DNA from: Alphaproteobacteria bacterium
GTDB lineage: Bacteria; Pseudomonadota; Alphaproteobacteria; SHVV01
Length of the DNA stretch: 64,000 bases
Direction: 5' to 3'
Assembly: GCA_965261735.1 (NCBI GenBank)
Contig: OZ253470.1
Span: 384,001-448,000 of the forward strand
The position numbers and the translations under genes are program-made. The notes under the pieces were generated by a model. The model searched no databases, had not been told where the DNA came from, and was given only the letters and a program-made list of their open reading frames with translations. Positions 1,325-58,591 of the stretch are shown here, in pieces (positions within the stretch are counted from its first letter, which is position 1; each line of letters starts with the position of its first letter).

Positions 1325-4300
1325 ATGGCGGATCGCGCACGTCGCAACCTGATCTTCGCCCACCAGGAATGGCTTGGCTTCGTCCAGCCCGTGGGCCTCC
1401 TATTGTCGCCAATCATCATGGTCGACGCCCAGGTCGTGCCCGACCGCAACATCTCGTGGCGCCAGCGCGAGTTTCGCGACCTGCTCGAAGAGGACGGAAG
1501 CGGTGCCACGGCCCGCTGGATTGCGCCCAACCTCCGCCGAGTGTTTCTCGGCTATCTGGGCTGGGAAGAAGGCGACCTTTTGGACGCGCTCGACCATCGG
1601 GACGCGCTGGAAATTGCCCTTCCCGAGTTGCAGGTCGTGCTCTCGCCCACCTGGGCCGTGCCGGCTGAAGAAGACCCGGACGCTGCATGGACGATGCTCG
1701 TTCGCGTCGAGGACGGCGGCGTCGACCTCGATAAACCCACCGGCGACGGCGCAGGGTGGAACGCCACTCGGCACGCCCGATTCGAACGGCTGTTGCGAGA
1801 GACCGACGTGCCGATCGGGTTGCTTTGCACCGATGAGGGTGTTCGTCTGATCCACGCGCCCAGGGGCGAGTCGTCGGGGTATGTAACCTTCGAGTTCTCG
1901 CAGATGGCGCTGCCGGCAGGCCGGCCCATCCTGGCCGCATTCGACATGCTGTTGTCGGCGGACGCACTCTTCGGTGGTTACCCCGAGGCTCGGCTGCCGG
2001 CGCTTCTGGCCAAGAGCCGCGATGCGCAGGCCGAAGTCTCCACGAGACTTTCTCGTCAGGTACTCGCGGCGCTGCATGAATTGCTTCGGGGCTTTGTCTC
2101 GGCAGACGCGCGCGGCGGCGGAACCGTGACCGACATCGCGCGGCGCGATCCCGATCACCTTTACGGCGGACTGATCACGACGCTGATGCGGCTCGTCTTC
2201 GTGCTTTACGCCGAAGACCGGGGCCTGATGCCTGGTCATCCCGTGTACCAGCAGCACTATTCCCTAGGCGGCCTTTTCGCCCGCTTGCGCGCCGATGCGG
2301 CGACTTGGCCCGATACCATGGACCAGCGTTTCGGCGCCTGGGCGCAGCTGCTTTCGTTATTCCGGCTAATCCACGGCGGCGGCGGACACGCCGGCCTCTC
2401 GTTTGTCGCACGCAAGGGTACGCTGTTCGATCCACACCGTTTCCCGTTCCTCGAAGGACGCGGGCCAGAGCAGAAGCCGGCAATTCCGATGGTCCCGGAC
2501 GCTAGCGTCTGGAAGGTGTTGCAGTCGTTGATGGTGCTAGACGGCGAGCGGCTGTCTTACCGCACACTCGATGTCGAGCAGATCGGTTCTGTGTACGAGG
2601 CCATCATGGGCTTTCGCGTCGAGCTGACCCCCGGGCGGTCGATCGCCGTGGCGTCGCCGAAACGGACCGGCGCCGCGGTTGTCGTCGACCTCGACCGTTT
2701 GCTCGAACTGGAAGGTGGCAAGCGTGCGAAGGCTTCCACGATTGTAGATGTTGTGGCGGCGCTTGACCGAGCGGTCGACCGCGACGCGACTCCGGACGTT
2801 GTTCCCGCTGGAACTCCTGTCCTTCAGCCGACGGACGAGCGGCGGCGGTCCGGCAGCCACTATACGCCGCGCTCTTTGACTGAACCGATCGTTTCCGAAG
2901 CTCTGCGTCCGATACTCGAACGTCTGGGACGGAATGCGCGGCCCGAAGACATTCTCGACCTCAAGGTTCTCGACCCAGCAACCGGTTCGGGTGCCTTCCT
3001 GGTCGAGGCCTGCCGTCAACTGTCGGCGCGACTGGTCGAGGCCTGGAGCGTTCATGGCGGACCGCCTGACCTGCCCGCCGACGAAGACGAGTTGCTTCAC
3101 GCCCGGCGACTTGTCGCCCAGCGATGCATCTATGGCGTCGACAAGAATTCGATGGCTATCGATCTGGCGCGGCTTTCGCTGTGGCTGGTTACCCTCGCGC
3201 GGGATCATGAATTCACCTTCATAGATCACGCCCTGCGCCACGGTGATTCGCTGGTTGGTCTCACGCGCAACCAGATCGAAGGATTCCATTGGGATGCCGA
3301 GGCACCGAGTTTTCAGCTCGGAATGGAGACAATGGAGGTGCAAAAGCACGTGGCCCGGGTCTCCGAGATGCGCCAACTGATCCGCGAACTTGGTGACGAG
3401 GCCCCTGAGCACGAACTGCGGGAGCTTCTGGACGAGTCCGAGCGTGAACTCAGGAACGTTCGCCGGGTCGCTGACCTGGTGTTGACGGCGTTCTTCGATG
3501 GAGGAAAGCCGAAGGAACGTGAGAGCAAGCGGGTCATGTACGGGAGTCTGCTTCTCGGAAGGGACCAAGCCGTGACCGCTTCGCCTGCGGCAGCAAAGTT
3601 GCCGGTCGCTCCCCTCCATTGGGAGTTAGAGTTTCCGGAGGTGTTCGAGCGCGAGAATCCGGGCTTCGATGCGGCAGTCGGTAATCCGCCATTCCTTGGC
3701 GGGAAACGAATCAGCACCGTACTTGGAAACCGGTTTCGAGACTGGCTGATAGCTCTGCATCCCGAAGCGAACAGCAATGCAGACTTGGTCGCGCATTTCT
3801 TTCGTAGAGTCTTTGAGTTGCTGCGCAAAGGAGGTGGTCTTGGTCTAGTCTCCACGAACACCATAAGCCAAGGCGACACAAGAGCCACGGGGTTGCGTTG
3901 GATCTGCAAGAACGGTGGTGTGATCCACCGCGCCCGACGACGGCTCAAGTGGCCCGGCGAGGCGGCCGTAGTAGTAAGTGTAGTTCATATTGCAAAGGGG
4001 GCTTATGCGGGTTCCAGGACGCTCGACGATCACCGGGCATCTGTGATCACCGCTTTTCTGTTTCATAGTGGTGGTAACGATGACCCGGTTCGTCTGAAAG
4101 CGAATTCTGAAAAAAGCTACGTGGGCATGTACTTGCGGGGCATGGGCTTCACTTTCGACGATACTGACACCAAGAACGTCGCCACATCGCTTGCAACAAT
4201 GAATCGTCTGATCGAAGCGAACACTCGCAATAGGGACGTGATCTTTCCCTACATCGGCGGAGAGGAGGTCAACACCAGCCCGGCCCATGCCCACCACCGC

Positions 4301-5446
4301 TACGTCATCAACTTCCGCGACTGGCCGCTGCGCCGCGCAGATATGGGTGCAACGTGGCTGGACGCAGACGAAGGCACGAGGCGCGACTGGCAGCGCGACG
4401 GGATCGTACCGCTTGACTATCCGGAGCAAGTGGCTGCGGACTATCCGGAGCTATTGTCAATTGTGGAAGAGCATGTTCGACCCACTCGACTAAGACTCGG
4501 AGAATCAGCGATTGACAGAGTCCACAAGCGTCGTTGGTGGTTGTATGCAAATGATCGCCCTCAGCTCCAACAGGCAGTCAGTAGCCTCGATCGCGTGCTT
4601 GTAATTTCCGAGATTGGCCAACATGGGGCGTTCGCATTTTTGCCAAGTCGCATGATCTTTTCCCATACGCTAAAGGTCTTCTCTCTCGATACTTACGCCG
4701 CCTTATGCGCCCTCCAGTCCCGCCCCCACGAAATCTGGGCCCGTTTCTTCGGATCGTCGCTGGAAGATCGGCTTCGCTACACACCCTCCGACTGTTTCGA
4801 GACTTTCCCATTCCCCGAGAACTGGGAATCGTGCCCCGCACTCGAAGCGGCGGGTGAGGCGTACTATGATTTGCGTGCGGCGTTGATGGCCGAGAACAAC
4901 GAGGGACTTACAAAAACCTACAACCGTTTTCACGATCCGGACGAGCGCGATTCCCGGATCGACCGGCTCCGTCAGCTTCACGCCGCAATGGACCGCGTCG
5001 TTCTGGAAGCCTATGGCTGGACCGACATTCCTACCGATTGCGAGTTCTTGTTGGATTACGAGATCGACGAAGAGACCTGGGGCAAGAAGAAGAAACCCTG
5101 GCGCTACCGCTGGCCCGATGAAGTCCGCGACGAAGTGCTCGCGCGCCTGTTGGCCCTCAACACCCAGCGCGCGGCCGAGGAGCGTATGGCCGGAAGTGGT
5201 GTGCGTCTTCCGGCGTTAGCCACCAGCACCTACAAGCCTACCTCAACGAGTTCACCTTCCGCTTCAACAGGCGGTTCTACCCGTTCAACGCCTTCCGCTC
5301 ATTGCTCGGCATCGCGGGCGACACCTCTGCTCCAACCTATGCCGAGCTTTACTCGGGAGAAGAGCCAAGCTTTGAGACCTGCAGATTCGCGATCTGGCGA
5401 GGCAAGCCGAACCCGACAGCAGCGCGGACGGCGGCGCAATCGGTGA
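1325..5446 (+). CDS. drmMI: Large N6-adenine DNA methyltransferase (Eco57I/type IIG-like, DISARM DrmMI-like); C-terminal tail replaced by foreign sequence
   Basis: Motifs 'GSHYTP', 'LDPATGSGAFL', 'GNPPF'; TRD region 'RLRYTPSDCFETFPFP'; sequence after ~5213 is IS1595-derived. Confidence 0.75.
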   Translation: MADRARRNLIFAHQEWLGFVQPVGLLLSPIIMVDAQVVPDRNISWRQREFRDLLEEDGSGATARWIAPNLRRVFLGYLGWEEGDLLDALDHRDALEIALPELQVVLSPTWAVPAEEDPDAAWTMLVRVEDGGVDLDKPTGDGAGWNATRHARFERLLRETDVPIGLLCTDEGVRLIHAPRGESSGYVTFEFSQMALPAGRPILAAFDMLLSADALFGGYPEARLPALLAKSRDAQAEVSTRLSRQVLAALHELLRGFVSADARGGGTVTDIARRDPDHLYGGLITTLMRLVFVLYAEDRGLMPGHPVYQQHYSLGGLFARLRADAATWPDTMDQRFGAWAQLLSLFRLIHGGGGHAGLSFVARKGTLFDPHRFPFLEGRGPEQKPAIPMVPDASVWKVLQSLMVLDGERLSYRTLDVEQIGSVYEAIMGFRVELTPGRSIAVASPKRTGAAVVVDLDRLLELEGGKRAKASTIVDVVAALDRAVDRDATPDVVPAGTPVLQPTDERRRSGSHYTPRSLTEPIVSEALRPILERLGRNARPEDILDLKVLDPATGSGAFLVEACRQLSARLVEAWSVHGGPPDLPADEDELLHARRLVAQRCIYGVDKNSMAIDLARLSLWLVTLARDHEFTFIDHALRHGDSLVGLTRNQIEGFHWDAEAPSFQLGMETMEVQKHVARVSEMRQLIRELGDEAPEHELRELLDESERELRNVRRVADLVLTAFFDGGKPKERESKRVMYGSLLLGRDQAVTASPAAAKLPVAPLHWELEFPEVFERENPGFDAAVGNPPFLGGKRISTVLGNRFRDWLIALHPEANSNADLVAHFFRRVFELLRKGGGLGLVSTNTISQGDTRATGLRWICKNGGVIHRARRRLKWPGEAAVVVSVVHIAKGAYAGSRTLDDHRASVITAFLFHSGGNDDPVRLKANSEKSYVGMYLRGMGFTFDDTDTKNVATSLATMNRLIEANTRNRDVIFPYIGGEEVNTSPAHAHHRYVINFRDWPLRRADMGATWLDADEGTRRDWQRDGIVPLDYPEQVAADYPELLSIVEEHVRPTRLRLGESAIDRVHKRRWWLYANDRPQLQQAVSSLDRVLVISEIGQHGAFAFLPSRMIFSHTLKVFSLDTYAALCALQSRPHEIWARFFGSSLEDRLRYTPSDCFETFPFPENWESCPALEAAGEAYYDLRAALMAENNEGLTKTYNRFHDPDERDSRIDRLRQLHAAMDRVVLEAYGWTDIPTDCEFLLDYEIDEETWGKKKKPWRYRWPDEVRDEVLARLLALNTQRAAEERMAGSGVRLPALATSTYKPTSTSSPSASTGGSTRSTPSAHCSASRATPLLQPMPSFTREKSQALRPADSRSGEASRTRQQRGRRRNR
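5213..5359 (+). mobile_element. IS1595 transposase 3' fragment
   Basis: Matches the reverse complement of ~45678-45824 in the IS1595 at 45628-46657. Confidence 0.85.
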
Positions 5447-10939: not shown

Positions 10940-11570
10940 TGTCAACGGCGGAGCAAAATTAGTCCACCCGGGCGGAGCAAAACTAGTCCACTTAACGTTA
11001 TGCGGTACGCGGTGTTGGGGGGTTGTCCCGGTAGTCCATAGGAGGGACCCGCGCTGCTTCGAGTAGCGCTTGCGTTACGCGGAGCGAAGCAGCGTGGGAG
11101 GTTCCTGTGGACCCACCGGGTCAACCATTGCACTGGCGGTTAAGCAGGTATTTTGGGGATTTTCGCCGTTTTTGGCTTTGGTTGAGACGATAGCTCTCGC
11201 CGTTCATTTCCAGGATATGGACATGGTGGGTGAGGCGGTCCAGCAAAGCCCCGGTCAGGCGTTCCGAGCCGAATATCTCCGTCCACTCATCGAACGGCAA
11301 GTTGGAGGTCACCAGGATCGAGCCCCGCTCGTAGCGCTGGCTGAAGACTTCGAACAGCAGCTCGGCGCCGGTCTTCGAGAGCGGCACGAAGCCGAGTTCG
11401 TCGATGATCAGAAGGTGATACTTTGCCAGTTGCTTCTGCAGGCGCAACAGGCGTTTTTCATCCCTGGCCTCCATCCGTTCATGAACCAGGGCAGCGGCCG
11501 TGAGGAAGCCGACGGAGAGCCCCTTTTGGCAGGCCGCCAGACCGAGACCGAGGGCGATATGGGTCTTGCC
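10940..11570 (-). mobile_element. istB: IS21 remnant (istB 3' half plus right end), truncated by IS6
   Basis: Near-identical to 25772-26405; TGTCAACGGCGG end with tandem gcggagcaaaa..agtccac repeats. Confidence 0.9.
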
Positions 11571-12376
11571 GGCATTGTCACGTTAACAGCGTGGCTTCGG
11601 CACGGCCGGTGCTTTAGCGTCTCTGGATGTGCAAGATATCCTACCGTCGTCACCGCTTTCCACCGGTCATCATCCAGCATGCCGTCTGGCTCTATTGCCG
11701 TTTCACGCTGAGCTATCGGGACGTTGATGACCTGCTTGCCGAGCGTGGTCTCGACATCTCGTATGAGACAGTTCGAAGATGGGTCTTGAAATTCGGTCGG
11801 GCCTATGCGCGGCGGATTCAACGTCGGCGGCCACGACCGACCGAACGCTGGCACCTGGACGAGATGGTCGTCGTAATTCGAGGGAGGCAGTTCTATCTCT
11901 GGCGTGCCGTGGACAGTGAGGGCGAAGTCCTGGATTTCCTGGTTCAATCCCGCAGGAACGCTCGGGCGGCAATTCGGCTGATGCGGAAACTCTTGAAGAA
12001 GCAGGGCTTCGCGCCGGCGACGATTGTAACCGATAAACTCCGCTCCTACGGCACCGCGATCCGTTTGCTTGCCCTCTCGGCTCAGCATGAGCAAGGCCTG
12101 CGAAAGAACAATCGGGCAGAAAATTCACATCAGCCGGTGCGACGACGAGAGCGAAAGATGCAGCGGTTCAAATCGCCCGCGTCCGCGCAGCGGTTCCTCG
12201 CCGTCCATGCGACCGTCTACAACCTCTTCAACGTCCAACGCCATCTGGTCTCCCGCCGAACACTCCGCCAATTCCGCGGCGACGCGATGAGACAGTGGCG
12301 GCAAGTGACGACCGTTGCATAATCTCCGGCGTCGGCGCCCACAAGCTGGCCAAATGGCGGTTAACGTGACAACGTC
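11571..12376 (+). mobile_element. IS6-family element B (transposase 11627-12322)
   Basis: TIRs ggcattgtcacgttaac / gttaacgtgacaac; IS6 DDE motifs. Confidence 0.92.
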
Positions 12377-12522: not shown

Positions 12523-14052
12523 GTGTGGATCATGAGGGCCTTGGACTACCACGAGTCCACCAAGCATTCGTGGGAGCGCATTCGCGCCAATCCCCACTCC
12601 CTCGACTTTGCGAACATGCCGCACCCCTTCAAGATCTATATCGACTTGGCGCGCCAGCCGCTCTCGACCGATTTGCCGGACTCGGCGGTTCCGGCGCTGG
12701 CCGCGCTGGCAGAACCGGGAGTAGACGCCGGCGGCGACCGGGTCGCGGGCCGGAATGAGCTGGCGCACCTGCTGTCGGCTGTCGGCATCACCAAGCGGCG
12801 GCGCTATCCGGGCGGCGAGATGCTGTTCCGCGGTGCGCCTTGCACCGGCGCGCTCTACCACATCGAGGTCTACGTGATCTGCACCGACCTGAAAGACCTG
12901 CCGGCCGGCGTCTATCAGTTCCAGCCGAAGGATTCCTCAGTGTGCCTGCTACGGCCGGGCGATTGCCGGCAGGTCCTCATCGACGCGAGCGGCGCGCACG
13001 CCGCCGTGGCCGACGCGCCGGTGGTGCTGGTCCTGACGAGCACGTGGTGGCGCAACGCCTGGAAGTATCAGGCGCGTGCCTATCGCCACGCTTGGTGGGA
13101 TTCGGGCTGCATGGCGGCCAACCTCCTGGCGCAGGCGGCGGCCCTGGAGCTCCCGGCCGCCTTGGTGGCCGGTTATGCCGACGACCCCGTCAACCGGCTG
13201 CTCGACGTCGATCCTGAGAAGGAGGCGTCCCTGATGCTGATGCCGATCGGGCGCGGCGGTCCGGCTCACGCGGCGCATCCGCCCCGGCTTGCCCCGCTCG
13301 GACTGTCGACGGAGCCGCTCTCGCATCACGAGGTGGCGTACCCGAACATTCCAGCGGTCCACGCCGCTTCCTGCCTGAACACTGGAGCCGAGGCGGCCGC
13401 GTGGCGCGGGGCCATGGACGAAGGCACCGAAGCCTCTCCAGACCGGCTCGTCCCCCTGCAACCAGCGGCGGACGATGCGGTTCCGGCCGAACCGCTGGAG
13501 GCCGTGATCCGGCGTCGCGGATCGAGCCGCCGGTTTACCGGCAAAAGCATCTCCTTCACCGCGCTCTCGACGATCCTGGACCGGACCGACCGCGCCATTG
13601 CCGCGGACTTTCTGGCCCCCTCCGGAGCGTCCCTCTGCGACCTCTATCTGATCGTCAACGCCGTCGACGGGCTCCCCGCAGGAACCTACGCATACAGGCC
13701 CGCGCACGGCGGGCTGGAGCCGCTCCGCGAGGGAACGTTTCGGGAGGAAGCGACGGCCTTGGCGCTGGGGCAGGACCTGGCGGGCGAGGCCAGCGTCAAC
13801 CTCTACTTCCTCGCCAACCTGCAACGCGTGACGGCGCGCTTCGGCGATCGCGGCTATCGCGCGGCCGAGCTCGAAGGGGGGATACGGGGCGGCAGGGTCT
13901 ATCTCGCCGCCTATGCGCTGGGACTGGAGGCCACGGGGCTGACCTTCCTCGATGACGACGTGACCGCATTCTTCTCGCCCCACGCGGCCGACAAATCGGT
14001 CATGTTCCTCGCGGCCGTGGGCCGGCCGGGCCGGCCTTACGCCGTTTCCTGA
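12523..14052 (+). CDS. SagB/ThcOx-family tandem nitroreductase-domain oxidoreductase
   Basis: 'RGAPCTGALYHIEVY', 'WKYQARAYRH', second domain 'IRRRGSSRRF'. Confidence 0.85.
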   Translation: MWIMRALDYHESTKHSWERIRANPHSLDFANMPHPFKIYIDLARQPLSTDLPDSAVPALAALAEPGVDAGGDRVAGRNELAHLLSAVGITKRRRYPGGEMLFRGAPCTGALYHIEVYVICTDLKDLPAGVYQFQPKDSSVCLLRPGDCRQVLIDASGAHAAVADAPVVLVLTSTWWRNAWKYQARAYRHAWWDSGCMAANLLAQAAALELPAALVAGYADDPVNRLLDVDPEKEASLMLMPIGRGGPAHAAHPPRLAPLGLSTEPLSHHEVAYPNIPAVHAASCLNTGAEAAAWRGAMDEGTEASPDRLVPLQPAADDAVPAEPLEAVIRRRGSSRRFTGKSISFTALSTILDRTDRAIAADFLAPSGASLCDLYLIVNAVDGLPAGTYAYRPAHGGLEPLREGTFREEATALALGQDLAGEASVNLYFLANLQRVTARFGDRGYRAAELEGGIRGGRVYLAAYALGLEATGLTFLDDDVTAFFSPHAADKSVMFLAAVGRPGRPYAVS

Positions 14053-14075
14053 GCGGGGTATCTGGTGTCGAGCCG

Positions 14076-14996
14076 ATGGCGTCCAAATTAGTGACGGTTT
14101 TCGGGGGATCGGGATTCCTCGGCCACCGGATCGTGGAACACCTGGCCGCAGCGGGGCACGACGTGCGTGTGGGCGTGCGCCATCCCGACCGCGCCGCCTT
14201 CCTGCGGCGGCTCGACGCGGACGGCCGGATCGAGCTGGTGCACGCAGATGTATGGGACGAGGCGACGGTCACACGGGCGGTGAACGGCGCGACTTCGGTC
14301 ATCAACACCGTCGGCCACTATGTCGAGAAAGGAGGCACGACATTCGATAGGATCCACGGCGAAGGAGCCCTGCACGTCGCCAGGCAGACGAAGCAGGCGG
14401 GGGTCCTGCGACTGATCCATATCTCAGGCCTGGGCGCCGATCCCGGGTCGGACTCGCCTTACGTCCGTGCCCGGGGGACCGGAGAAAGCCTCGTCAAGGA
14501 GGCCTTCGATGGCGTCACGATCCTGCGCCCCGGCGTGATATTCGGTCCGGATGATTCCTTCCTGAACAGACTTGCCATGTTGGCACGGCAAAGCCCGGTG
14601 CTGCCGCTGTTCGGAATTGGAGGCACGAGACTGCAACCCGTGTTCGTGGAAAACGTCGCGGAAGCCTGCGTGAGGGTTCTAGCCAATCCCTCCACTCGAT
14701 GCCGCGTCTACGAACTCGGTGGGCCGCGGGTATACGCCTACAAGGAACTCGTACAGTTGGTGCTCGAAGGGATCGGCAGGCGTACGGTCATGATCCCGGT
14801 CCCCTTCCTCGTGTGGGACATCCTCGCGGCCGTGACGGCATTTCACCCCGATCCGCCGCTGACCCGCGATCAGGTGAAATTGATGTCACGGCACAATGTC
14901 GTCGGGCGGCAGGCGTTGACCCTGGAAGACCTGGGCATTCGCCCTACTCCGGTGGAAGAGGTTTTGTCCGCCTGCATTGGCGTGACCCCCTCCTGA
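14076..14996 (+). CDS. NDUFA9-like atypical SDR (NAD(P)-binding)
   Basis: 'TVFGGSGFLG' Rossmann motif; 'LRPGVIFGPDD'. Confidence 0.88.
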   Translation: MASKLVTVFGGSGFLGHRIVEHLAAAGHDVRVGVRHPDRAAFLRRLDADGRIELVHADVWDEATVTRAVNGATSVINTVGHYVEKGGTTFDRIHGEGALHVARQTKQAGVLRLIHISGLGADPGSDSPYVRARGTGESLVKEAFDGVTILRPGVIFGPDDSFLNRLAMLARQSPVLPLFGIGGTRLQPVFVENVAEACVRVLANPSTRCRVYELGGPRVYAYKELVQLVLEGIGRRTVMIPVPFLVWDILAAVTAFHPDPPLTRDQVKLMSRHNVVGRQALTLEDLGIRPTPVEEVLSACIGVTPS

Positions 14997-25771: not shown

Positions 25772-25972
25772 TGTCAACGGCGGAGCAAAATTAGTCCACC
25801 CGGGCGGAGCAAAACTAGTCCACTTAAATGTTATGCGGTACGCGGTGTTGGGGGGTTGTCCCGGTAGTCCATAGGAGGGACCCGCGCTGCTTCGTGTAGC
25901 GCTTGCGTTACGCGGAGCGAAGCAGCGTGGGAGGTTCCTGTGGGCCCACCGGGTCAACCATTGCACCGGCGG

Positions 25973-26743
25973 TTAAGCAGGTATTTTTGGGGATTTCCGC
26001 CGTTTTTGGCTTTGGTTGAGACGATAGCTCTCGCCGTTCATTTCCAGGATATGGACATGGTGGGTGAGGCGGTCCAGCAAAGCCCCGGTCAGGCGTTCCG
26101 AGCCGAATATCTCCGTCCACTCATCGAACGGCAAGTTGGAGGTCACCAGGATCGAGCCCCGCTCGTAGCGCTGGCTGAAGACTTCGAACAGCAGCTCGGC
26201 ACCGGTCTTCGAGAGCGGCACGAAGCCGAGTTCGTCGATGATCAGAAGGTGATACTTTGCCAGTTGCTTCTGCAGGCGCAACAGGCGTTTTTCATCCCTG
26301 GCCTCCATCAGTTCATGAACCAGGGCAGCGGCCGTGAGGAAGCCGACGGAGAGCCCCTTTTGGCAGGCCGCCAGACCGAGACCGAGGGTGATATGGGTCT
26401 TGCCGGTTCCGCTGTTGCCGAGCGCGATGATATTCTCACGACGCTCGACGTATTCGCATCGCGCCAACTCCAGAACCAGCATCTTGTTGAGCGATGCGAT
26501 GGCCTTGAAGTCGAAGCTGTCGAGGCTTTTGACGGCGGGGAACCTGGCCTGTCTGATCCGCCGCTCGACCATGCGGCGCTCACGGTCGATCAGTTCCAAC
26601 TCGGTCAGACGGACAAGATACCGCACATGGTCGGCGCCCTCGGTGGCGCATTGGCGGGCCAGCTTGTCGTATTCGCGCAGGAACGTCGGCAGTTTCAGGG
26701 TCTTGAGGTGATGGGCCAGCAACACTTGCGGCGTATCGGTCAT
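25973..26743 (-). CDS. istB: IS21 helper ATPase IstB
   Basis: Walker A GNSGTGKT; Walker B LLIIDELG. Confidence 0.93.
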   Translation of the reverse strand: MTDTPQVLLAHHLKTLKLPTFLREYDKLARQCATEGADHVRYLVRLTELELIDRERRMVERRIRQARFPAVKSLDSFDFKAIASLNKMLVLELARCEYVERRENIIALGNSGTGKTHITLGLGLAACQKGLSVGFLTAAALVHELMEARDEKRLLRLQKQLAKYHLLIIDELGFVPLSKTGAELLFEVFSQRYERGSILVTSNLPFDEWTEIFGSERLTGALLDRLTHHVHILEMNGESYRLNQSQKRRKSPKIPA

Positions 26744-28254
26744 GACGCGCCTCCACCCAACAAGCTCATATAACTGGCGGCGGCCGTGGTCGCCACGTTG
26801 GCCCGAGGCAGGTAGGGATAGATATCCAGGTCGAGTTTGGGCGGGCGTCGCTCGATACGGCACAGCACAAGGTGTTTGACGGCGTCGTAGCCGATCGCAC
26901 CCAGGCGCAGGGCGTCCTTCACCGCGCCGTGAAGCACCTCGAGATCGAAGGTCTCCAGAAGCCGAAGGACCTGGACCTATTCCCGCTTGCCGGCCTTGCC
27001 CATGCGCGCCTCCAGGAGACGGCGCAGGGTTGGGAAGGCATCAGGCAGTTCCCATCCGGCTAGCGGCGCGGCCTGATCCAGGGCGCCGATCTTGTGCTCC
27101 AGCAAAGGCAGGTAGTGGATCGGATCGAAGACCATATCTTCCCGGTCGTAGGAACGGGGGTGTCGGGCAATGATCCCGGCGCCGCAACCGATAACCACCT
27201 CGTGGACATAGCCACGGATCCAGACTTCCTGATGGCCGTAGGCGACGGGCACGGAATAGTCATTCGTCCGGTAGCGCACCAGGGACAGCGAGTTGACCCG
27301 CGTGCCCTGCTTGTCGCACGCGTCGAACGGTGCCGGCAGTGGCCTCTTCAACGCTTCGCGGTCACGCACAAACCGTTCGCCGATGCTCTCGCGGTGGCCG
27401 CGCAGGACGTTGCCTTGCCGGTTGCGGCATTGCTCTTCCAGGTGGCCATTGAAGGCGTCCCAGCTCGCGAACCGGGGAAGCGGCGTCATGAAGTTCCGCC
27501 GGGCATAGCCGACCACCCCCTCCACATTGCCTTTGTCGTTACCCTTGCCGGGACGGCCGTAGCGGTCCTCGAAGAGGTAATGGGACTGCAGCCCGCTGAA
27601 CGCCCGCGTTCGTTGCCGCGTGCCATCTGACAAGATGCGCGACACCAGACACTTGTCGTTGTCGTAAAGAATCGATTGGGGAACGCCGCCGAAAAAAACA
27701 AAGGCTCTGTTGTGCCCGTCCAGCCAGGCCTCCGTCGTCGCCGCCGGGTAGGCCGCAACGAAGCAGGCATCGCTGTGGGGAAGTGTCATGACGAAAAAAT
27801 GCGCCCGATACTTGACGCCGGCGATGATCGCATCCGCCTCGCCAAAGTCCGCTTGAGCATGGCCCGGAGGATGTGACAACGGCACAAACATCTCACGCCG
27901 ACGAAGGCGCCGTTCCCGAACGTAATCCTTCACGATGGTCTCTTTGCCCGTGAAGCCATGTTCGTCGCGAAGGCGCTCGAATATACGCTTCGCCGTGTGG
28001 TGCTGCTTACGGTGAACCGTTCGGTCCTCCTCCAGAATACGGTCGATGATATCCGTGAAGGGGGCCAGTTTCGGGCGTTTCGGTGGCTGGCGTCGCCGAT
28101 ATCCCGGCGGTTCCGAATGCCGCAGCATCTTCCTCACCGTCTCGCGCGCAATGCCAAACCGACTTGCCGCCTCTCGCTGGCTCAGACCATCAACATGGCA
28201 GGCCAGCCGAACGCGCAGATATAGGTCCACGGTGTACATCCTCCCGCCTTCCAT
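26740..28254 (-). pseudogene. istA: IS21 transposase IstA with premature stop at ~26977
   Basis: ORF stops at 'GKRE*' but continues in frame (VQVLRLLETF...GGGAS) to overlap the istB start. Confidence 0.85.
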
Positions 28255-32858: not shown

Positions 32859-34212
32859 CATGTATGGACGCCCCCGGTGTTGCAAGGGGAAAACTGATTT
32901 GAATCGGCGGTAGAGCTTGCAGTCATGTATCCGGCCTTTTCGCTGCGGTACGCTGACCGCTGGCCCTGATGGAATCCGAAAGATCGACGCCCAGTCAGAC
33001 TAACGAGCTTGATGCTCGGACAATGCCTCGGGTTTGGCCGATCTCGGGTGGAACCCTGTTTCGCCATCAAATCGTCGTCACCCTCGCAATTTGATCCCGG
33101 TTTGCCAGCTGGCTATGCCGGCGTCGGTCGGTAGATACGCTCGTACCTGAGCAGTGCCCAGGCGACACGGGCTGCCTTATTGGCCATGGCGACCAGCACC
33201 ACGTTTGTCGGCCGCCGCGCCAGGAGCCGGTCGGTCCAGCCAGGCCCCGTGCCCGGCTTGGCGCGGCGCCAGCGCAGCACGGTTCGCGCACCATGCACGA
33301 GCAAGCGCCTGATATAGCCATCCCCGCGCTTCGATATCCGTCCCAGTCTATCCTTGCCGCCACTCGAGTGCTGCCGGGGCACCAGACCGAGCCAGGCCGA
33401 AAGCTGTCGGCCCGAGCGGAACTGTGCGCCATCGCCGATCGTCGCGACCAGCGCCGTCGCGGTGATGACACCGACGCCGGGGATCGTCGCAAGACGGCGG
33501 CTCGCCTCGTTGGAGCGGTGCCATGCCAAAAGCGTCACTTCCAGCTGCTTGATCCGGGCCTGAGCAGAACGGAGCTGCTCAACCAGAGAGCCAAGCGCCT
33601 CGCGTGCCAGAGGCGGCAGTCGCACATCGCCGGGATCTTCGATAATGGCAACCAGTTCCTCCACCTTCGACGCCCCCTGAGCGACGATCAGTCCGAACTC
33701 CGCACAGTGGCCGCGCAGCGCATTGATCACCATCGTGCGTTGACGGACCAACAGCTCTCGGGCCCGGTGCAGCATCAGAACCGACTGCTGCTCGGCGCTT
33801 TTCGCCGGTGCAAAGCGCATCGTCGGACGCGTCACTGCCTCACAGATCGTTTCCGCATCCGCTGCGTCGTTCTTATTCGTTTTGACGAAGGGACGAACGT
33901 ATTGAGGCGGAATCAGCTGAACTTTGTGCCCGTGTGCTTGCAGTTCCCGAGCCCAATAGTGCGCAGAGGCACAGGCTTCCATACCGACAAGACAGGATGG
34001 CAATCCGGCGAAGAACGCCAGCACCTTCCCGCGGCGCAGCTTCCGCCGTAGTACCGGTCGTCCCTCACCATCAGCACCGTGAACCTGGAACACCGTCTTT
34101 GCCAGATCGAACCCAATTGTCGTAATATCCATCGTGGACGCTCCCTCTGTCTGGGTTGTTCAACACACTCCAGTATGGCTCATCGTGAAGCCGTAGGGGG
34201 CGTCCATACCAT
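32859..34212 (-). mobile_element. IS1111-subgroup (IS110 family) element 1; recombinase 33113-34132
   Basis: DEDD motifs (GFDLAK, MEAC, KNDAADA); 'SSGGK' catalytic Ser; subterminal IRs gtatggacgccccc; TG core at both junctions. Confidence 0.93.
32880..33112 (-). ncRNA. Putative bridge/seek RNA of IS1111 element 1 (boundaries approximate)
   Basis: Segments at 33019-33027 and 32994-33003 match the flanks; 32967-32972 and 32923-32930 match the circle junction. Confidence 0.75.
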
Positions 34213-55328: not shown

Positions 55329-55362
55329 AAACCCCTGAAAACATCAGTGTCTTCAGGGGTTT
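55329..55362 (-). terminator. Intrinsic-terminator-like hairpin downstream of the tRNA fragment
   Basis: aaacccctgaa-N12-ttcaggggttt. Confidence 0.6.
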
Positions 55363-55366
55363 GATT

Positions 55367-55412
55367 TGGTTGCGGGGTTGGATTTGAACCAACGACCTTC
55401 AGGCTATGAGCC
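55367..55412 (-). pseudogene. tRNA-fMet 3' half (att-site remnant)
   Basis: Reverse complement ggctcatagcctgaaggtcgttggttcaaatccaaccccgcaacca: CAT anticodon, T arm, CCA; no D arm. Confidence 0.85.
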
Positions 55413-55467
55413 GGATTGTCATGTCAACGGCGGCGGGAATATGTACCGGCGCGGCGGCGCAAAAATG

Positions 55468-56845
55468 ATGGAGTGGACGCCTCCTCCCGACGGCATCTGC
55501 ATGTGCCAAGGTGGTGTTGTAGTTCGACCCCCTGAAGGAGGAGGCATCCGTGGAACAGGTTACCATCGTCGGGATTGATTTGGCGAAGCGCAGCTTTCAG
55601 CTTCATGGTGCTGGGGCGGACGGCTCTGTCGCGTTCCGCAGGAAGCTGAGCCGGGAGAGATTGCTTGAGTTTCTCGCTTCTCAGCCGCGCTGCGTGGTCG
55701 CGATGGAGGCTTGCGCGGGCGCTCATCAATGGGGCCGCGAGATCGGACAGCTCGGCCACGATGTGAGGTTGCTCCCGCCGATCTACGTCAAGCCGTTCGT
55801 GAAGCGGCATAAGAACGACATGGCGGACGCAGAGGCGATCTGCGAGGCGGCGCAGCGCCCGACGATGCGCTTCGTGGCGGTGAAGACGGAAGAACAGCAG
55901 GCCAGGGGAATGTTGTTCCACACGCGCGACCTTCTGGTGCGCCAGCGCACGCAGACGATCAACGCGTTGCGGGGCCACCTGGCGGAGTTCGGCGTCGTCG
56001 CGCCGCAGGGACCGGCTCATGTCGATCGGCTGGCATCGGCCCTCCAGGATCCAGGTTCAGGGCTGCCGGGATCGGTCCGTGAGCTGGGCGCCCTTCTGTT
56101 CGATCGGATCGAGGACCTCGATGCGAAGATCGCTGGATTGAGGAGGGAGCTCCGCGCCCGCGCGTGTCAGGACGAAGAGGCGGCACGGGTCATGACGATC
56201 CCCGGCATTGGGCCGATCACCGCAACGGCAGTCCAGGCCTTCGCACCGCCGATGGAGAGCTTCCGGCGCGGCCGCGACTTCGCGGCCTGGCTCGGGCTCG
56301 TGCCGCGACAGTACACGACCGGCGGCAAGCCAAGGCTTGGCAGGATATCGAAGATGGGCCAACGCGATCTGAGGCGGCTGTTGATCACGGGCGCCATGGC
56401 TGTGGTCAGCTGGGCGGCTCGTCGTGGCGAAACGAACGCCCCCTGGCTGGCCAGGATGCTCGCCCGCAAGCCGAGAATGCTGGTCGCGGTGGCGCTGGCC
56501 AACCGGATGGCACGCATCGTCTGGGCGGTGACGACGAAGAAGGAGAGCTACCGGGCTCCCGCCGCCGCCTGAGAGGGCGGCGAAAGGCGGAGAGCCGTCG
56601 GGGATGTGGGCAGGTCGGAGGACAGGTAAGGGCAAACGGTCGATCGAGACGGGATCGGGAAAACCAGTCGTGGTACACGGAGCTTTCAAGCCCGCAAAAA
56701 TGATCTTGGACCCGGCCCGCGCATCTCCATACAGGCCCGCGGCGTCAAACCAGCCGCATCATGAGGCCGGACAGATGACTAAACCTGACCGCATGTGCCG
56801 AACCGTCCGAAGAAAGGCTTGCATCAACGGAGGCGTCCACAGATG
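55468..56845 (+). mobile_element. IS1111-subgroup (IS110 family) element 2; recombinase 55550-56572
   Basis: GIDLAK, MEAC, KNDMADA; subterminal IRs gtggacgcctcc / ggaggcgtccac; TG core. Confidence 0.95.
56573..56825 (+). ncRNA. Putative bridge/seek RNA of IS1111 element 2 (boundaries approximate)
   Basis: cgtggtaca (56669-77) and cgcaaaaatg (56693-702) match the flanks; ctccat (56725-30) and acagatga (56771-78) match the circle junction. Confidence 0.82.
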
Positions 56846-56940
56846 TACCACGGGCTCGGTGGTAGCTTGTCCGCGTAGTCCATGGGAGGGACCCGCGCGC
56901 GGGGCGACGCGCCCTCCGCGCGATCGAAGGCAGGCTGCGA

Positions 56941-57565: not shown

Positions 57566-58591
57566 CCGGCCGAACCGCTGGAGGCCGTGATCCGGCGTCG
57601 CGGATCGAGCCGCCGGTTTACCGGCAAAAGCATCTCCTTCACCGCGCTCTCGACGATCCTGGACCGGACCGACCGCGCCATTGCCGCGGACTTTCTGGCC
57701 CCCTCCGGAGCGTCCCTCTGCGACCTCTATCTGATCGTCAACGCCGTCGACGGGCTCCCCGCAGGAACCTACGCATACAGGCCCGCGCACGGCGGGCTGG
57801 AGCCGCTCCGCGAGGGAACGTTTCGGGAGGAAGCGACGGCCTTGGCGCTGGGGCAGGACCTGGCGGGCGAGGCCAGCGTCAACCTCTACTTCCTCGCCAA
57901 CCTGCAACGCGTGACGGCGCGCTTCGGCGATCGCGGCTATCGCGCGGCCGAGCTCGAAGGGGGGATACGGGGCGGCAGGGTCTATCTCGCCGCCTATGCG
58001 CTGGGACTGGAGGCCACGGGGCTGACCTTCCTCGATGACGACGTGACCGCATTCTTCTCGCCCCACGCGGCCGACAAATCGGTCATGTTCCTCGCGGCCG
58101 TGGGCCGGCCGGGCCGGCCTTACGCCGTTTCCTGAGCGGGGTATCTGGTGTCGAGCCGATGGCGTCCAAATTAGTGACGGTTTTCGGGGGATCGGGATTC
58201 CTCGGCCACCGGATCGTGGAACACCTGGCCGCAGCGGGGCACGACGTGCGTGTGGGCGTGCGCCATCCCGACCGCGCCGCCTTCCTGCGGCGGCTCGACG
58301 CGGACGGCCGGATCGAGCTGGTGCACGCAGATGTATGGGACGAGGCGACGGTCACACGGGCGGTGAACGGCGCGACTTCGGTCATCAACACCGTCGGCCA
58401 CTATGTCGAGAAAGGAGGCACGACATTCGATAGGATCCACGGCGAAGGAGCCCTGCACGTCGCCAGGCAGACGAAGCAGGCGGGGGTCCTGCGACTGATC
58501 CATATCTCAGGCCTGGGCGCCGATCCCGGGTCGGACTCGCCTTACGTCCGTGCCCGGGGGACCGGAGAAAGCCTCGTCAAGGAGGCCTTCG
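57566..58591 (+). repeat. 1026-bp direct duplication of 13483-14508 (3' SagB-like plus 5' SDR)
   Basis: Same sequence and translations in both places. Confidence 0.95.

What the first reader, a model, noticed from the sequence alone, without database searches (positions are those of the whole stretch)
55422..56860. IS1111 whose bridge-RNA guides spell out an IS21 terminal repeat: RNA-guided parasite of another IS
Removing the element restores cgcaaaaaTGtaccacg, the second tandem repeat in an IS21 end. The 3' non-coding region contains cgtggtaca (9/9 reverse complement of TGtaccacg) and, 15 nt later, cgcaaaaatg (10/10 with the left flank plus core). It then has ctccat and acagatga, matching the predicted circle junction acagaTGatggag. 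This fits the IS110/IS1111 bridge/seekRNA mechanism (established). Programming against an IS21 transposase-binding repeat is the notable part and parallels IS4321/IS5075 targeting Tn21 TIRs. The recombinase also reads 'YTTGGK' where element 1 has 'HSSGGK', suggesting Thr at the catalytic Ser position.
Basis: partly seen in the sequence, partly recalled or inferred. Interest (0 to 1): 0.8.

Follow-up and report, generated by a model that had tools for sequence, protein, structure and literature searches.

The report
RNA-guided IS1111 element targeting IS21 ends
This is an intact IS1111-type insertion sequence whose own guide RNA matches the spot where it sits, inside a transposase-binding repeat at the end of another insertion sequence (IS21): a known mechanism aimed at a target class I did not find described.

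Summary
A 1,378-bp IS1111-group element (window 55468-56845) sits at a TG core inside the inner direct repeat (R2) of an IS21-family right end. Its 3' non-coding region carries two segments that match the target 9/9 and 10/10. It also carries two segments that match its own ends.

The same genome holds three more copies at the same position of other IS21 right ends. These three inserts are identical to each other (0/1378 differences) while their IS21 flanks differ, so they inserted independently.

A sister subfamily with changed guides sits at the equivalent position of a different IS21 in related genomes. There, 9 ends are occupied and 20 identical ends are empty, of the 29 ends the script classified in one genome.

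Across 55 distinct element/site combinations the guides track the flanks. A six-helix RNA fold with compensatory changes leaves all four guide segments essentially unpaired; only the first base of one lies in a stem.

The mechanism (seekRNA/bridge RNA) is already known, and so is targeting of transposon ends (IS4321/IS5075). IS21 ends are a target class my literature searches did not find reported.

The "Thr instead of catalytic Ser" is real but common in this clade (65 of 113 nearest cluster representatives). In the window the IS21 is only a 123-bp remnant. Whether the insertion disables IS21 remains open.

The parts
55422..55467 (+). Outer part of an IS21-family right-end remnant. It holds the terminus TGTCAACGG, the outer direct repeat R1, and the GC-rich box plus A-rich spacer of the inner repeat R2. 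It ends in the TG core (55466-55467).
   Evidence: The same 46 bp start the right end of the one full IS21 copy of the genome (istB and istA follow there). The repeat structure was read. The R1/R2 and CS1/CS2 scheme is from PMC10122671 (passages).
55468..56845 (+). IS1111-group insertion sequence, 1,378 bp counting one copy of the TG core. By the 7-bp-left/3-bp-right convention it spans 55466-56843.
   Evidence: Blastn boundaries against 14 copies of a sister subfamily and an empty site. Contigs skip exactly 1378 bases.
55473..55484 (+). Left subterminal inverted repeat GTGGACGCCTCC, preceded by the terminal extension ATGGA (55468-55472).
   Evidence: It is conserved across 67 related elements.
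55550..56572 (+). Recombinase/transposase gene, 340 aa, GTG start behind a GGAGGAGG ribosome-binding site. DEDD residues are D10, E53, D90 and D93. T257-G258 sit at the place of IS621 S241-G242.
   Evidence: PF01548 2.9e-14 and PF02371 5.1e-24. NF033542 'IS110 family RNA-guided transposase', 318.5 bits against a cutoff of 140. Alignment to ISCro4 and IS621 chains.
56638..56790 (+). Structured core of the predicted seekRNA/bridge RNA. Helices: P0 56638-42/56786-90, P1 56652-57/56713-18, P2 56664-67/56706-09, P3 56680-84/56689-93, P4 56734-37/56765-68, P5 56739-43/56753-57.
   Evidence: 46-sequence alignment A3: 95.0% of cells paired, 11 of 29 pairs with compensatory change, 0 of 500 shuffles reach the covariation score, and the slid controls pair 21-48%.
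56669..56677 (+). Target guide 1. It is complementary to the top strand of the core plus right flank (TGTACCACG) and lies on the 5' side of the internal loop between P2 and P3.
   Evidence: 9/9. It covaries with the right flank in subfamilies B and C and family-wide. It is unpaired in the consensus fold.
56693..56702 (+). Target guide 2. It is identical to the left flank plus core, hence complementary to the bottom strand, and lies on the 3' side of the same loop. C56693 closes P3 and the next two bases are conserved in the family, so about 56696-56702 is the variable part.
   Evidence: 10/10. Covariation.
56725..56730 (+). Donor guide 1 (CTCCAT), complementary to the left end ATGGAG. It is single-stranded between P1 and P4.
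56771..56778 (+). Donor guide 2 (ACAGATGA), identical to the right end, the core and the first base of the left end, which is the predicted circle junction. It is single-stranded between P4 and P0.
   Evidence: 8/8. It changes to ACACACGA in subfamily C, whose right end is ...ACACACG.
56829..56840 (+). Right subterminal inverted repeat GGAGGCGTCCAC, followed by the 3-bp extension AGA (56841-56843) and the second TG (56844-56845).
56846..56922 (+). Inner part of the IS21 right-end remnant. It starts with the second GC-rich box of R2 (TACCACGG). Similarity to the full IS21 copy stops at 56922.
   Evidence: Blastn 1-77 at 98.7% to the full copy. No IS21 gene follows.

Best explanation
Window 55468-56845 is an intact member of the IS1111 group of the IS110 family. 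It encodes a DEDD/Tnp-domain recombinase and, downstream of that gene, a structured non-coding RNA (seekRNA/bridge RNA).

In this RNA one internal loop carries two short guides. One pairs with the top strand of the core plus right flank. The other pairs with the bottom strand of the left flank plus core. A multi-branch loop carries two more guides that match the element's own joined ends.

By the established IS110/IS1111 mechanism, the element excises as a circle. The recombinase-RNA complex then recombines the circle junction with a DNA site that pairs with the target guides, exchanging strands at the shared TG core.

Here the guides spell the A-rich spacer and the second GC box of the inner direct repeat (R2) of an IS21-family right end. 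That repeat is of the kind bound by the IS21 transposase IstA. The element therefore lands between the two halves of R2, always pointing into the IS21.

Shown here:
- the anatomy of the element;
- the guide-flank matches;
- independent insertions into several IS21 ends;
- co-variation of guides and targets;
- the conserved RNA fold.

Inferred:
- that the RNA is made and bound by the recombinase;
- that a circle forms;
- that Thr257 is the nucleophile;
- that splitting R2 impairs IS21.
For: 1. **Family.** PF01548 and PF02371. NF033542 scores 318.5 bits against a cutoff of 140. There is a 12-bp perfect subterminal repeat, extensions of 7 bp on the left (counting TG) and 3 bp on the right, and a 271-nt non-coding stretch after the gene against 82 nt before it. 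These are the features the seekRNA paper gives for IS1111 (PMC11187229; abstract, a passage of its Introduction and sections 9 and 13).
2. **Guides.** 9/9 and 10/10 for the target, 6/6 and 8/8 for the donor. The combined pattern is unique in the window and found in 0 of 100 shuffles. The top-strand match lies 5' of the bottom-strand match and the two overlap at the core, as reported for IS1111 seekRNAs.
3. **Target is an IS21 end.** The full copy (L001) has the same end followed by istB (NF038214, 283 bits) and istA (NF033546, 263 bits).
4. **Independent hits.**
   - Copies A2-A4 are 0/1378 different from each other. Their IS21 flanks differ at 2-6 of 46 positions on the left and 2 of 55 on the right, and their outer flanks are unrelated.
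   - The genome has no unoccupied perfect 17-nt target.
   - The five IS21-end sites with 1 or 3 mismatches are empty. The single-mismatch site has its mismatch next to the core.
5. **Natural retargeting.**
   - Subfamily B (86% identical) has guides changed at 7 positions.
   - It sits at the equivalent spot of a different IS21 repeat (...CCAAAATTG^ACCCCCC) in G001, G002 and 7 of 7 B-type public loci. It occurs at both left and right IS21 ends, always pointing inward.
   - In G001, 9 IS21 ends are occupied and 20 identical ends are empty, of the 29 ends the script classified.
   - Subfamily C (14 copies) has other guides, a CG core and another target.
6. **Family-wide.** In 55 distinct element/site combinations the longest exact guide-flank match averages 6.3 nt (right) and 6.5 nt (left). 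It averages 3.1 and 3.1 for 2,938 mismatched pairings.
7. **RNA fold.** Six helices, 95% of cells paired, and 66 cells with double changes against 18.5 in shuffles. The guides are unpaired apart from C56693.
8. **RNA-library contigs.** Contigs of two metatranscriptome runs cover 56638-56768 with 2 differences. This shows presence only.
Against: - No RNA ends, no RNA-protein association and no circle junction were seen. The runs laid are contigs, which cannot show them.
- No sigma-70-like promoter was found in the linear element.
- Rfam 15 gave no match.
- The single-sequence fold is no more stable than shuffles, z = -0.30.
- The window copy differs from its three identical siblings at 36 of 1378 positions. 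This includes 17 amino-acid changes (12 synonymous against 19 non-synonymous nucleotide differences). It also includes a private C at 56716 that breaks a P1 pair and that none of the contigs covering it in three of the four runs carries (in X3, contigs worth 195.5 of 199.5 depth carry T instead). This copy may therefore be drifting.
- The nucleophile position holds Thr, not the Ser shown to be catalytic in IS621.
- In G001, three occupied IS21 copies at different loci share a private two-SNP haplotype. This fits transposition of the IS21 with its passenger and argues against complete inactivation of IS21.
Confidence: 0.9

Rival explanations
1. The repeated association with IS21 ends is a by-product. 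One ancient insertion into one IS21 was then spread by IS21 transposition of the composite, and the guide-like matches need not direct anything.
For: In G001 three occupied IS21 copies at different loci (L143, L149, L150) share a two-SNP haplotype (83A, 205C) that none of the 20 empty copies has. This fits movement of the composite.
Against: - In the window's genome the three identical inserts (0/1378) sit in IS21 ends that differ at 2-6 of 46 and 2 of 55 positions, and two of those ends are truncated remnants.
- In G001 occupied copies occur on several IS21 haplotypes. One of these is shared with 3 empty copies.
- The B type occupies left and right ends, and in one case the outermost repeat of another IS21.
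- Co-mobilisation does not explain why the guides match the flanks in 55 combinations.
Confidence: 0.06
2. Target choice is made by the protein reading the IS21 repeat, as a classical site-specific recombinase would. The RNA-like matches are relics of past recombination with the target.
For: No RNA was observed directly here. The non-coding region gives no Rfam match.
Against: - The matching segments are the only strongly variable parts of an otherwise conserved, covarying RNA scaffold.
- They change together with the flanks while the recombinases stay 61-86% identical.
- One match is in reverse-complement orientation, which capture of target DNA would not give.
- Experiments on other IS1111 members show the RNA is required and reprogrammable (PMC11187229, abstract).
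Confidence: 0.03
3. Chance: short matches between a 270-nt GC-rich non-coding region and its flanks.
For: Individual 6-nt donor matches are short.
Against: The pattern is unique in the window and found in 0 of 100 shuffles. The same register holds in the sister subfamilies. Own guide-flank matches are twice as long as mismatched ones.
Confidence: 0.01

Closest known systems
[quoted passage not shown] I know this only from its title in the reference lists of PMC11187229 and PMC11208160. The paper itself is not held.
   Same: An IS1111-group element with subterminal repeats that inserts at one position and in one orientation inside the transposase-binding end of another transposable element.
   Different: The host element is an IS21-family IS (DDE transposase IstA plus the ATPase IstB), not a Tn3-family transposon. 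The site is the inner of two direct repeats. Two sublineages with different guides follow two different IS21 lineages.
ISEc11, ISKpn4, ISPst6, ISPa11 (IS1111 group), with experimentally shown seekRNAs (PMC11187229; abstract, a passage of its Introduction and sections 9 and 13 read).
   Same: The non-coding region lies downstream of the transposase gene. [quoted passage not shown] The terminal extensions are 7 bp and 3 bp.
   Different: Their targets are a short linear site, integron attC sites and REP sequences. No IS21 target is mentioned (0 occurrences of 'IS21' in the text). Here nothing is shown experimentally.
IS621 / ISCro4 bridge recombinases (PDB 8wt6, 9t56; PMC11208160 and PMC11208158, passages read).
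   Same: DEDD RuvC-like domain plus Tnp domain. Two-loop logic: target guides and donor guides, each reading both strands around a 2-nt core. The Gly after the nucleophile is conserved.
   Different: The IS110-group RNA lies upstream of the gene and ours lies downstream. Our donor guides sit in a multi-branch loop, as Durrant et al. note for many IS1111 members. Similarity is clear only in the Tnp domain: the N-terminal domain aligns only weakly, with conditional E-values of 2.5e-4 (ISCro4) and 0.02 (IS621), against phmmer whole-protein E-values of 1e-11 and 5e-9. The nucleophile position is Thr, not Ser241.

Membership tests
IS110 family (DEDD recombinase) | [quoted passage not shown] | tested here: met
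   PF01548 at 53.6 bits (cutoff 29) and PF02371 at 84.9 bits (cutoff 21.3). NF033542 at 318.5 bits (cutoff 140).
IS110 family (DEDD recombinase) | The four acidic residues D-E-D-D | tested here: met
   D10, E53, D90 and D93 align with identical residues of the ISCro4 chain. The IS621 numbering D11/E60/D102/D105 is from PMC11208158.
IS110 family (DEDD recombinase) | Hydroxyl nucleophile followed by a conserved Gly in the Tnp-domain loop (Ser241-Gly242 in IS621) | tested here: met
   T257-G258 align with S-G of IS621 without gaps, between the flanking PR..Y and SK.G...LRR anchors. The residue is Thr, not Ser. Of the 113 nearest cluster representatives that cover the site, 65 have Thr and 48 have Ser. 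In this genome, 20 of the 34 IS110-family tblastn hits that cover the motif carry TTGG, among them all 14 near-identical subfamily-C copies; one more carries GTGG. That Thr acts as the nucleophile was not tested.
IS1111 group | Subterminal inverted repeats of about 11-13 bp, with terminal extensions of 7 bp (left) and 3 bp (right) | tested here: met
   12-bp perfect repeat at 55473-55484 and 56829-56840. Extensions are TGATGGA and AGA. The criterion is from PMC11187229.
IS1111 group | The long non-coding region lies downstream of the transposase gene | tested here: met
   271 nt after the stop (56573-56843) against 82 nt before the start (55468-55549).
seekRNA / bridge RNA system | RNA segments complementary to both strands of the target, overlapping at the core, and segments matching the donor ends | tested here: met
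   9/9, 10/10, 6/6 and 8/8. Covariation with flanks in 55 combinations.
seekRNA / bridge RNA system | Conserved secondary structure that presents the guides in loops | tested here: met
   Six helices, 95% of cells paired, 11 pairs with compensatory changes, 0 of 500 shuffles. The guides are unpaired apart from C56693.
seekRNA / bridge RNA system | The RNA is expressed, binds the recombinase and is required for transposition | not testable with these tools
   Only contigs of RNA libraries cover 56638-56768. That shows presence in the library, not transcription or binding.
IS21 family (the target element) | istA (DDE transposase) followed by istB (AAA+ helper) | tested here: met
   In the full copy L001: NF033546 at 263 bits (cutoff 160) and NF038214 at 283 bits (cutoff 200). 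In the window itself only 123 bp of the end remain.
IS21 family (the target element) | Ends that start with TG and carry two or more direct repeats, each with two GC-rich boxes around an AT-rich spacer | tested here: met
   Read: the terminus TGTCAACGG, then R1 (GGCGGCGGGAATATGTACCGG), then R2 (GGCGGCGCAAAAATGTACCACGG). The scheme is from PMC10122671. Binding by this IstA was not tested.

The most novel reading that the evidence does not exclude
A whole sub-clade of Thr-nucleophile IS1111 recombinases makes its living on other mobile elements. By changing a few guide nucleotides it has followed at least two IS21 lineages to the same functional spot, between the two half-sites of an IstA-binding repeat. 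Relatives have been re-aimed at their own siblings, at the seekRNA gene and at the subterminal repeat. If splitting R2 cripples IS21, these elements act as RNA-guided, self-propagating suppressors of IS21 expansion. That would be a natural 'IS against IS' interference system.
Probability: 0.3. Interest if true: 0.65.

Novelty: new member of a known kind. Interest (0 to 1): 0.48.

Why it matters
The element adds a new target class to RNA-guided IS1111 elements: the repeats at IS21 ends that the IS21 transposase is expected to bind.

It also offers a ready-made natural reprogramming series. Three subfamilies in one genome share one scaffold but have three guide sets and three targets, and identical sites occur both occupied and empty. 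This is useful material for working out the guide rules of IS1111-type bridge RNAs, which are less well studied than those of IS621.

It makes one question testable: does an RNA-guided IS restrain another IS family by splitting its transposase-binding repeat?

The frequent Thr at the catalytic position, in elements with clear signs of recent activity, is worth a biochemical look. The published work I read speaks only of a conserved serine.

Tried and rejected
- **Rfam 15** on the whole window: 0 matches at gathering scores. The RNA could not be assigned to a curated family.
- **ARAGORN:** 0 tRNA genes. The tRNA-like 3' fragment next to the IS21 terminus rests on my reading only.
- **Single-sequence fold** of 56600-56800: z = -0.30, uninformative.
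- **First three-sequence consensus fold:** it used wrong coordinates for one locus and was discarded.
- **Plasmid collection:** only distant partial matches, 61-82% over at most 36% of the query.
- **Sigma-70 promoter scan** of the linear element: none found. The junction promoter expected in the circle was not examined, because that needs a joined sequence.
- **Reads:**
  - No contig showed the circle junction. One low-depth back-joint (56852 to 55450, depth 4) is not that junction.
  - Contig depths were not used to compare the non-coding region with the gene.
  - Contig ends at 56638 and 56768 also occur in the runs whose library kind is not on record (X1, X3), so they are not RNA ends.
- **First guide-versus-flank count** with fixed columns: it suffered from register shifts of 1-3 nt and was replaced by a register-free measure.
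- **Papers:** seven searches found no report of an IS110/IS1111 element targeting IS21 ends, and none of Thr at the catalytic position. ISfinder, subscription journals and supplementary tables were not visible and may hold such notes, in particular the target logos of Siddiquee et al. and Supplementary Table 5 of Durrant et al.
- **Rows dropped:**
  - Of the 80 public loci, 13 lacked one sTIR anchor.
  - Five had element lengths outside 1340-1440 bp.
  - Four had flanks shorter than 12 nt.
  - For alignment A3, five loci whose right end was mis-anchored or otherwise aberrant in the alignment, and duplicate rows, were left out.
  - Of the 150 representatives, 37 did not cover residues 250-268. 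My own protein P0002 was in the count and is removed in the figures given here.
Full report
**What is there.**
At 55422 a sequence begins with TGTCAACGG. It carries two similar direct repeats:
- R1: GGCGGCGGGAATATGTACCGG.
- R2: GGCGGCGCAAAAATG / TACCACGG, interrupted by the element.

Between TG at 55466-55467 and TG at 56844-56845 lies a 1,378-bp element with these parts:
- a 12-bp perfect subterminal inverted repeat (55473-55484 and 56829-56840);
- a 340-aa gene (55550-56572);
- 271 nt of non-coding DNA after the gene.

The protein has the two domains of IS110-family recombinases (PF01548 and PF02371). It passes NCBI's model 'IS110 family RNA-guided transposase' at 318.5 bits against a cutoff of 140. 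The subterminal repeats, the terminal extensions (7 bp on the left counting TG, 3 bp on the right) and the downstream non-coding region are the marks of the IS1111 group, as given by Siddiquee et al. (PMC11187229; abstract, a passage of its Introduction and sections 9 and 13).

**The target is an IS21 end.**
The window has no istA or istB behind the element. Similarity to IS21 ends 77 bp after the insertion point. The same end occurs in one full IS21-family element elsewhere in the genome (locus L001). There it is followed by istB (NF038214, 283 bits) and istA (NF033546, 263 bits) on the opposite strand. The interrupted sequence is therefore the right end, and the interrupted repeat is the inner one (R2).

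According to the IstA structure paper (PMC10122671, passages):
- IS21 ends consist of two direct repeats;
- each repeat has two GC-rich boxes around an AT-rich spacer;
- IstA needs two complete repeats to integrate DNA in vitro.

The element sits at the end of the spacer of R2, just before the second GC box.

**Boundaries and empty sites.**
Blastn of the region against the whole genome gave three groups:
- three more copies at 97%, in which the IS21 flanks also align;
- one copy at 86% (subfamily B);
- fourteen copies at 81% (subfamily C), which align only from 55467 to 56841.

An IS21-like right end without an insert lies at genome position 2,249,7xx. It reads ...GCGCAAAATTGTACCACGGGC, one mismatch next to the core.

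In public runs:
- contigs of two RNA libraries join 55464 to 56843, skipping exactly 1378 bases;
- contigs of two runs whose library kind is not on record (X1, X3) continue from the left flank straight into TACCAC...

A related genome (G004) has at least four empty ends of this kind.

**Independent insertions.**
All four copies of subfamily A sit at the same position of an IS21 right end, and each has a different sequence outside the IS21 terminus. Copies A2, A3 and A4 are identical over all 1,378 bases. Their IS21 flanks differ from each other at 2-6 of 46 positions on the left and 2 of 55 on the right. Two of these hosts are IS21 fragments. A single old insertion spread by IS21 would give equal divergence in insert and flank. 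The data instead fit three recent hits by one element into already diverged ends.

Occupied and unoccupied sites genome-wide:
- There is no unoccupied perfect 17-nt target.
- Two occupied sites are perfect. Two have one mismatch far from the core.
- The one site with a mismatch next to the core is empty.
- The four left-end repeats, each with three mismatches, are also empty.

A second IS21-family element in the window has its istA at 26977-28254 on the minus strand. Its right end starts at 25772, and the spacer of that end lacks the TG and the matching bases. It is unoccupied, as is its truncated copy at 10940.

**The guides.**
- 56669-56677 is the reverse complement of TG plus 7 nt of right flank (9/9).
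- 56693-56702 equals 8 nt of left flank plus TG (10/10).
- The combined pattern occurs once in the window and in none of 100 shuffles.
- 56725-56730 is complementary to the left end.
- 56771-56778 equals the right end, TG and the first base of the left end.

The order of the guides (top-strand match first, then bottom-strand match, overlapping at the insertion point) is the order reported for IS1111 seekRNAs.

**Natural reprogramming.**
The three subfamilies share the scaffold but differ exactly in the guide segments.
- **Subfamily B.** Its guides read GGTGGGTCA and CGCAAAATTG. It sits at ...CCAAAATTG^ACCCCCC, the inner repeat of a different IS21 whose end starts TGTTGTTCGG.
  - This holds in G001, in G002 and in 7 of 7 B-type loci from public genomes.
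  - Each of those loci has istA or istB beside it.
  - It occurs at left and at right IS21 ends, always pointing inward.
- **Subfamily C.** It has a CG core, its donor guide is changed to ACACACGA to match its own right end, and its guides fit its loose target AACCG^TTCG.

In G001, 29 of 30 fetched IS21 left ends could be classified by the script. Nine are occupied and 20 are empty with the identical target. The thirtieth (L135) is the occupied copy already seen as L026.

**Family-wide test.**
Eighty loci were fetched from public genomes with recombinases 61-86% identical.
- 67 had both end anchors.
- 62 of these had a normal length.
- Together with the window copy and one C copy, 60 elements had full flanks. 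They form 55 distinct guide/site combinations.

The longest exact match between an element's own guide regions and its own junctions averages 6.3 nt (right) and 6.5 nt (left). For 2,938 pairings of guides with the junctions of other elements it averages 3.1 and 3.1.

**RNA structure.**
An alignment of 46 distinct non-coding regions supports six helices:
- 95.0% of 1,330 cells form pairs;
- 11 of 29 pairs show compensatory changes;
- 66 cells have changes on both sides, against 18.5 in shuffles (0 of 500 reach it);
- structures slid by 1-3 columns pair only 21-48% of cells.

The two target guides lie on the two sides of an internal loop, between helix P2 and the small hairpin P3. The two donor guides lie in the multi-branch loop closed by P0. 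This is what Durrant et al. describe for many IS1111 members (PMC11208160, passages). The guides are not buried in stems, apart from the first base of the 10-mer, which closes P3.

**Thr at the catalytic position.**
HMMER aligns YTTGG of this protein with YESGS of IS621, without gaps and between strong anchors. The Ser of that motif is S241, which forms the covalent 5'-phosphoserine link (PMC11208158, passages).

- All A, B and C copies carry TTGG. Of the 34 IS110-family hits in this genome that cover the motif, 20 carry TTGG, one carries GTGG and 13 carry Ser at that position.
- Of the 113 representatives among the 150 best library hits that cover the site, 65 have Thr and 48 have Ser.

Fourteen near-identical C copies and three identical A copies show that Thr-bearing elements have moved recently. 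I found no paper combining 'bridge RNA', 'threonine' and 'IS1111'.

**State of the window copy.**
It is intact, but it differs from its three identical siblings at 36 positions. These include 17 amino-acid changes and a private C at 56716 that breaks a P1 pair. None of the contigs covering that position in three of the four runs has this C, and in X3 nearly all depth (195.5 of 199.5) shows T instead. It is probably an older copy and may be decaying.

**What remains inferred.**
- That the RNA is made and bound. RNA-library contigs cover 56638-56768, but this shows presence only.
- That a circle forms.
- That Thr257 is the nucleophile.
- That splitting R2 harms IS21.

On the last point the evidence is mixed. 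IstA needs two complete repeats in vitro. Yet in G001 three occupied IS21 copies at different loci share a private two-SNP haplotype, which would fit an IS21 that still moves with its passenger.

**Comparison and novelty.**
The mechanism is the established seekRNA/bridge RNA mechanism. Targeting the end of another transposon is known for IS4321/IS5075; I know that paper only by its title in reference lists, since it is not held.

What my seven literature searches did not find in print:
- the IS21 target;
- the parallel pursuit of two IS21 lineages by guide change;
- the relatives aimed at sibling IS1111 elements.

ISfinder notes and supplementary tables could not be seen. I file this as a new member of a known kind, of moderate interest.

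Noticed in passing
window 56318-56320 (T257); also genome-wide: Thr replaces the catalytic Ser of IS621 (S241). It is frequent in this clade: 65 Thr against 48 Ser among the 113 nearest 50%-cluster representatives that cover the site. In this genome the recently active subfamilies (14 and 3 near-identical or identical copies) have TTGG. The window's other IS110 element (33113-34132, minus strand) has SSGG.
   Followed up: partly
L051 (element 3419-4795) = G002:C4 about 1629208-1630587; also L037: A relative with a CG core is inserted into the seekRNA gene of a B-type sibling, at GGGCAAACG^GTCAATC. This corresponds to window 56637/56639, the 5' strand of helix P0. Its own guides match this site 7/9 and 8/10, so it is an IS1111 aimed at a sibling's guide-RNA gene.
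   Followed up: partly
L098 and L078 (two contigs of one public MAG): Another relative is inserted into the right subterminal repeat of a sibling IS1111 (...GGGGGCG^TCCATAGACG). One guide matches 9 nt in a row.
   Followed up: no
genome G000, 14 sites outside the window (e.g. 374883-376253): Subfamily C (81% identical, CG core) has 14 near-identical copies at scattered sites that share only AACCG^TTCG-like flanks. This is a much looser target than that of the A type.
   Followed up: partly
G001, loci L143, L149, L150: Three IS21 copies that carry the B-type insert at different loci share two private SNPs (83A, 205C) that none of the 20 empty copies has. The IS21 may still transpose with its passenger.
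   Followed up: partly
window 25772-28254 (minus strand) and 10940-10995: A second, different IS21-family element has its istA at 26977-28254. Its right end starts TGTCAACGGCGGAGCAAAATTAGTCCAC and is unoccupied. A truncated copy of that end lies at 10940, next to an IS6-family transposase gene (11627-12322). The 296-aa ORF 25973-26863 (presumably istB) was not scanned.
   Followed up: partly
window about 55362-55415 (minus strand): Directly outside the IS21 terminus lies what reads like the 3' half of a tRNA gene (T-arm and acceptor stem), possibly a leftover attachment site of an integrative element. ARAGORN calls no tRNA in the window, so this rests on reading alone.
   Followed up: no
window 13483-14508 and 57566-58591: An exact 1,026-bp duplication covers part of a nitroreductase-like gene and an NAD(P)-binding gene. 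The whole window is dense in mobile elements: three IS256-family transposase genes, IS1595, IS6, two IS110-family elements, IS21 remnants and a large serine recombinase.
   Followed up: no
window 56716: The window copy has C where its three siblings have T. In three of the four runs every contig covering the position has T, and in X3 nearly all depth does (195.5 of 199.5). The C turns an A-U pair of helix P1 into A·C.
   Followed up: yes
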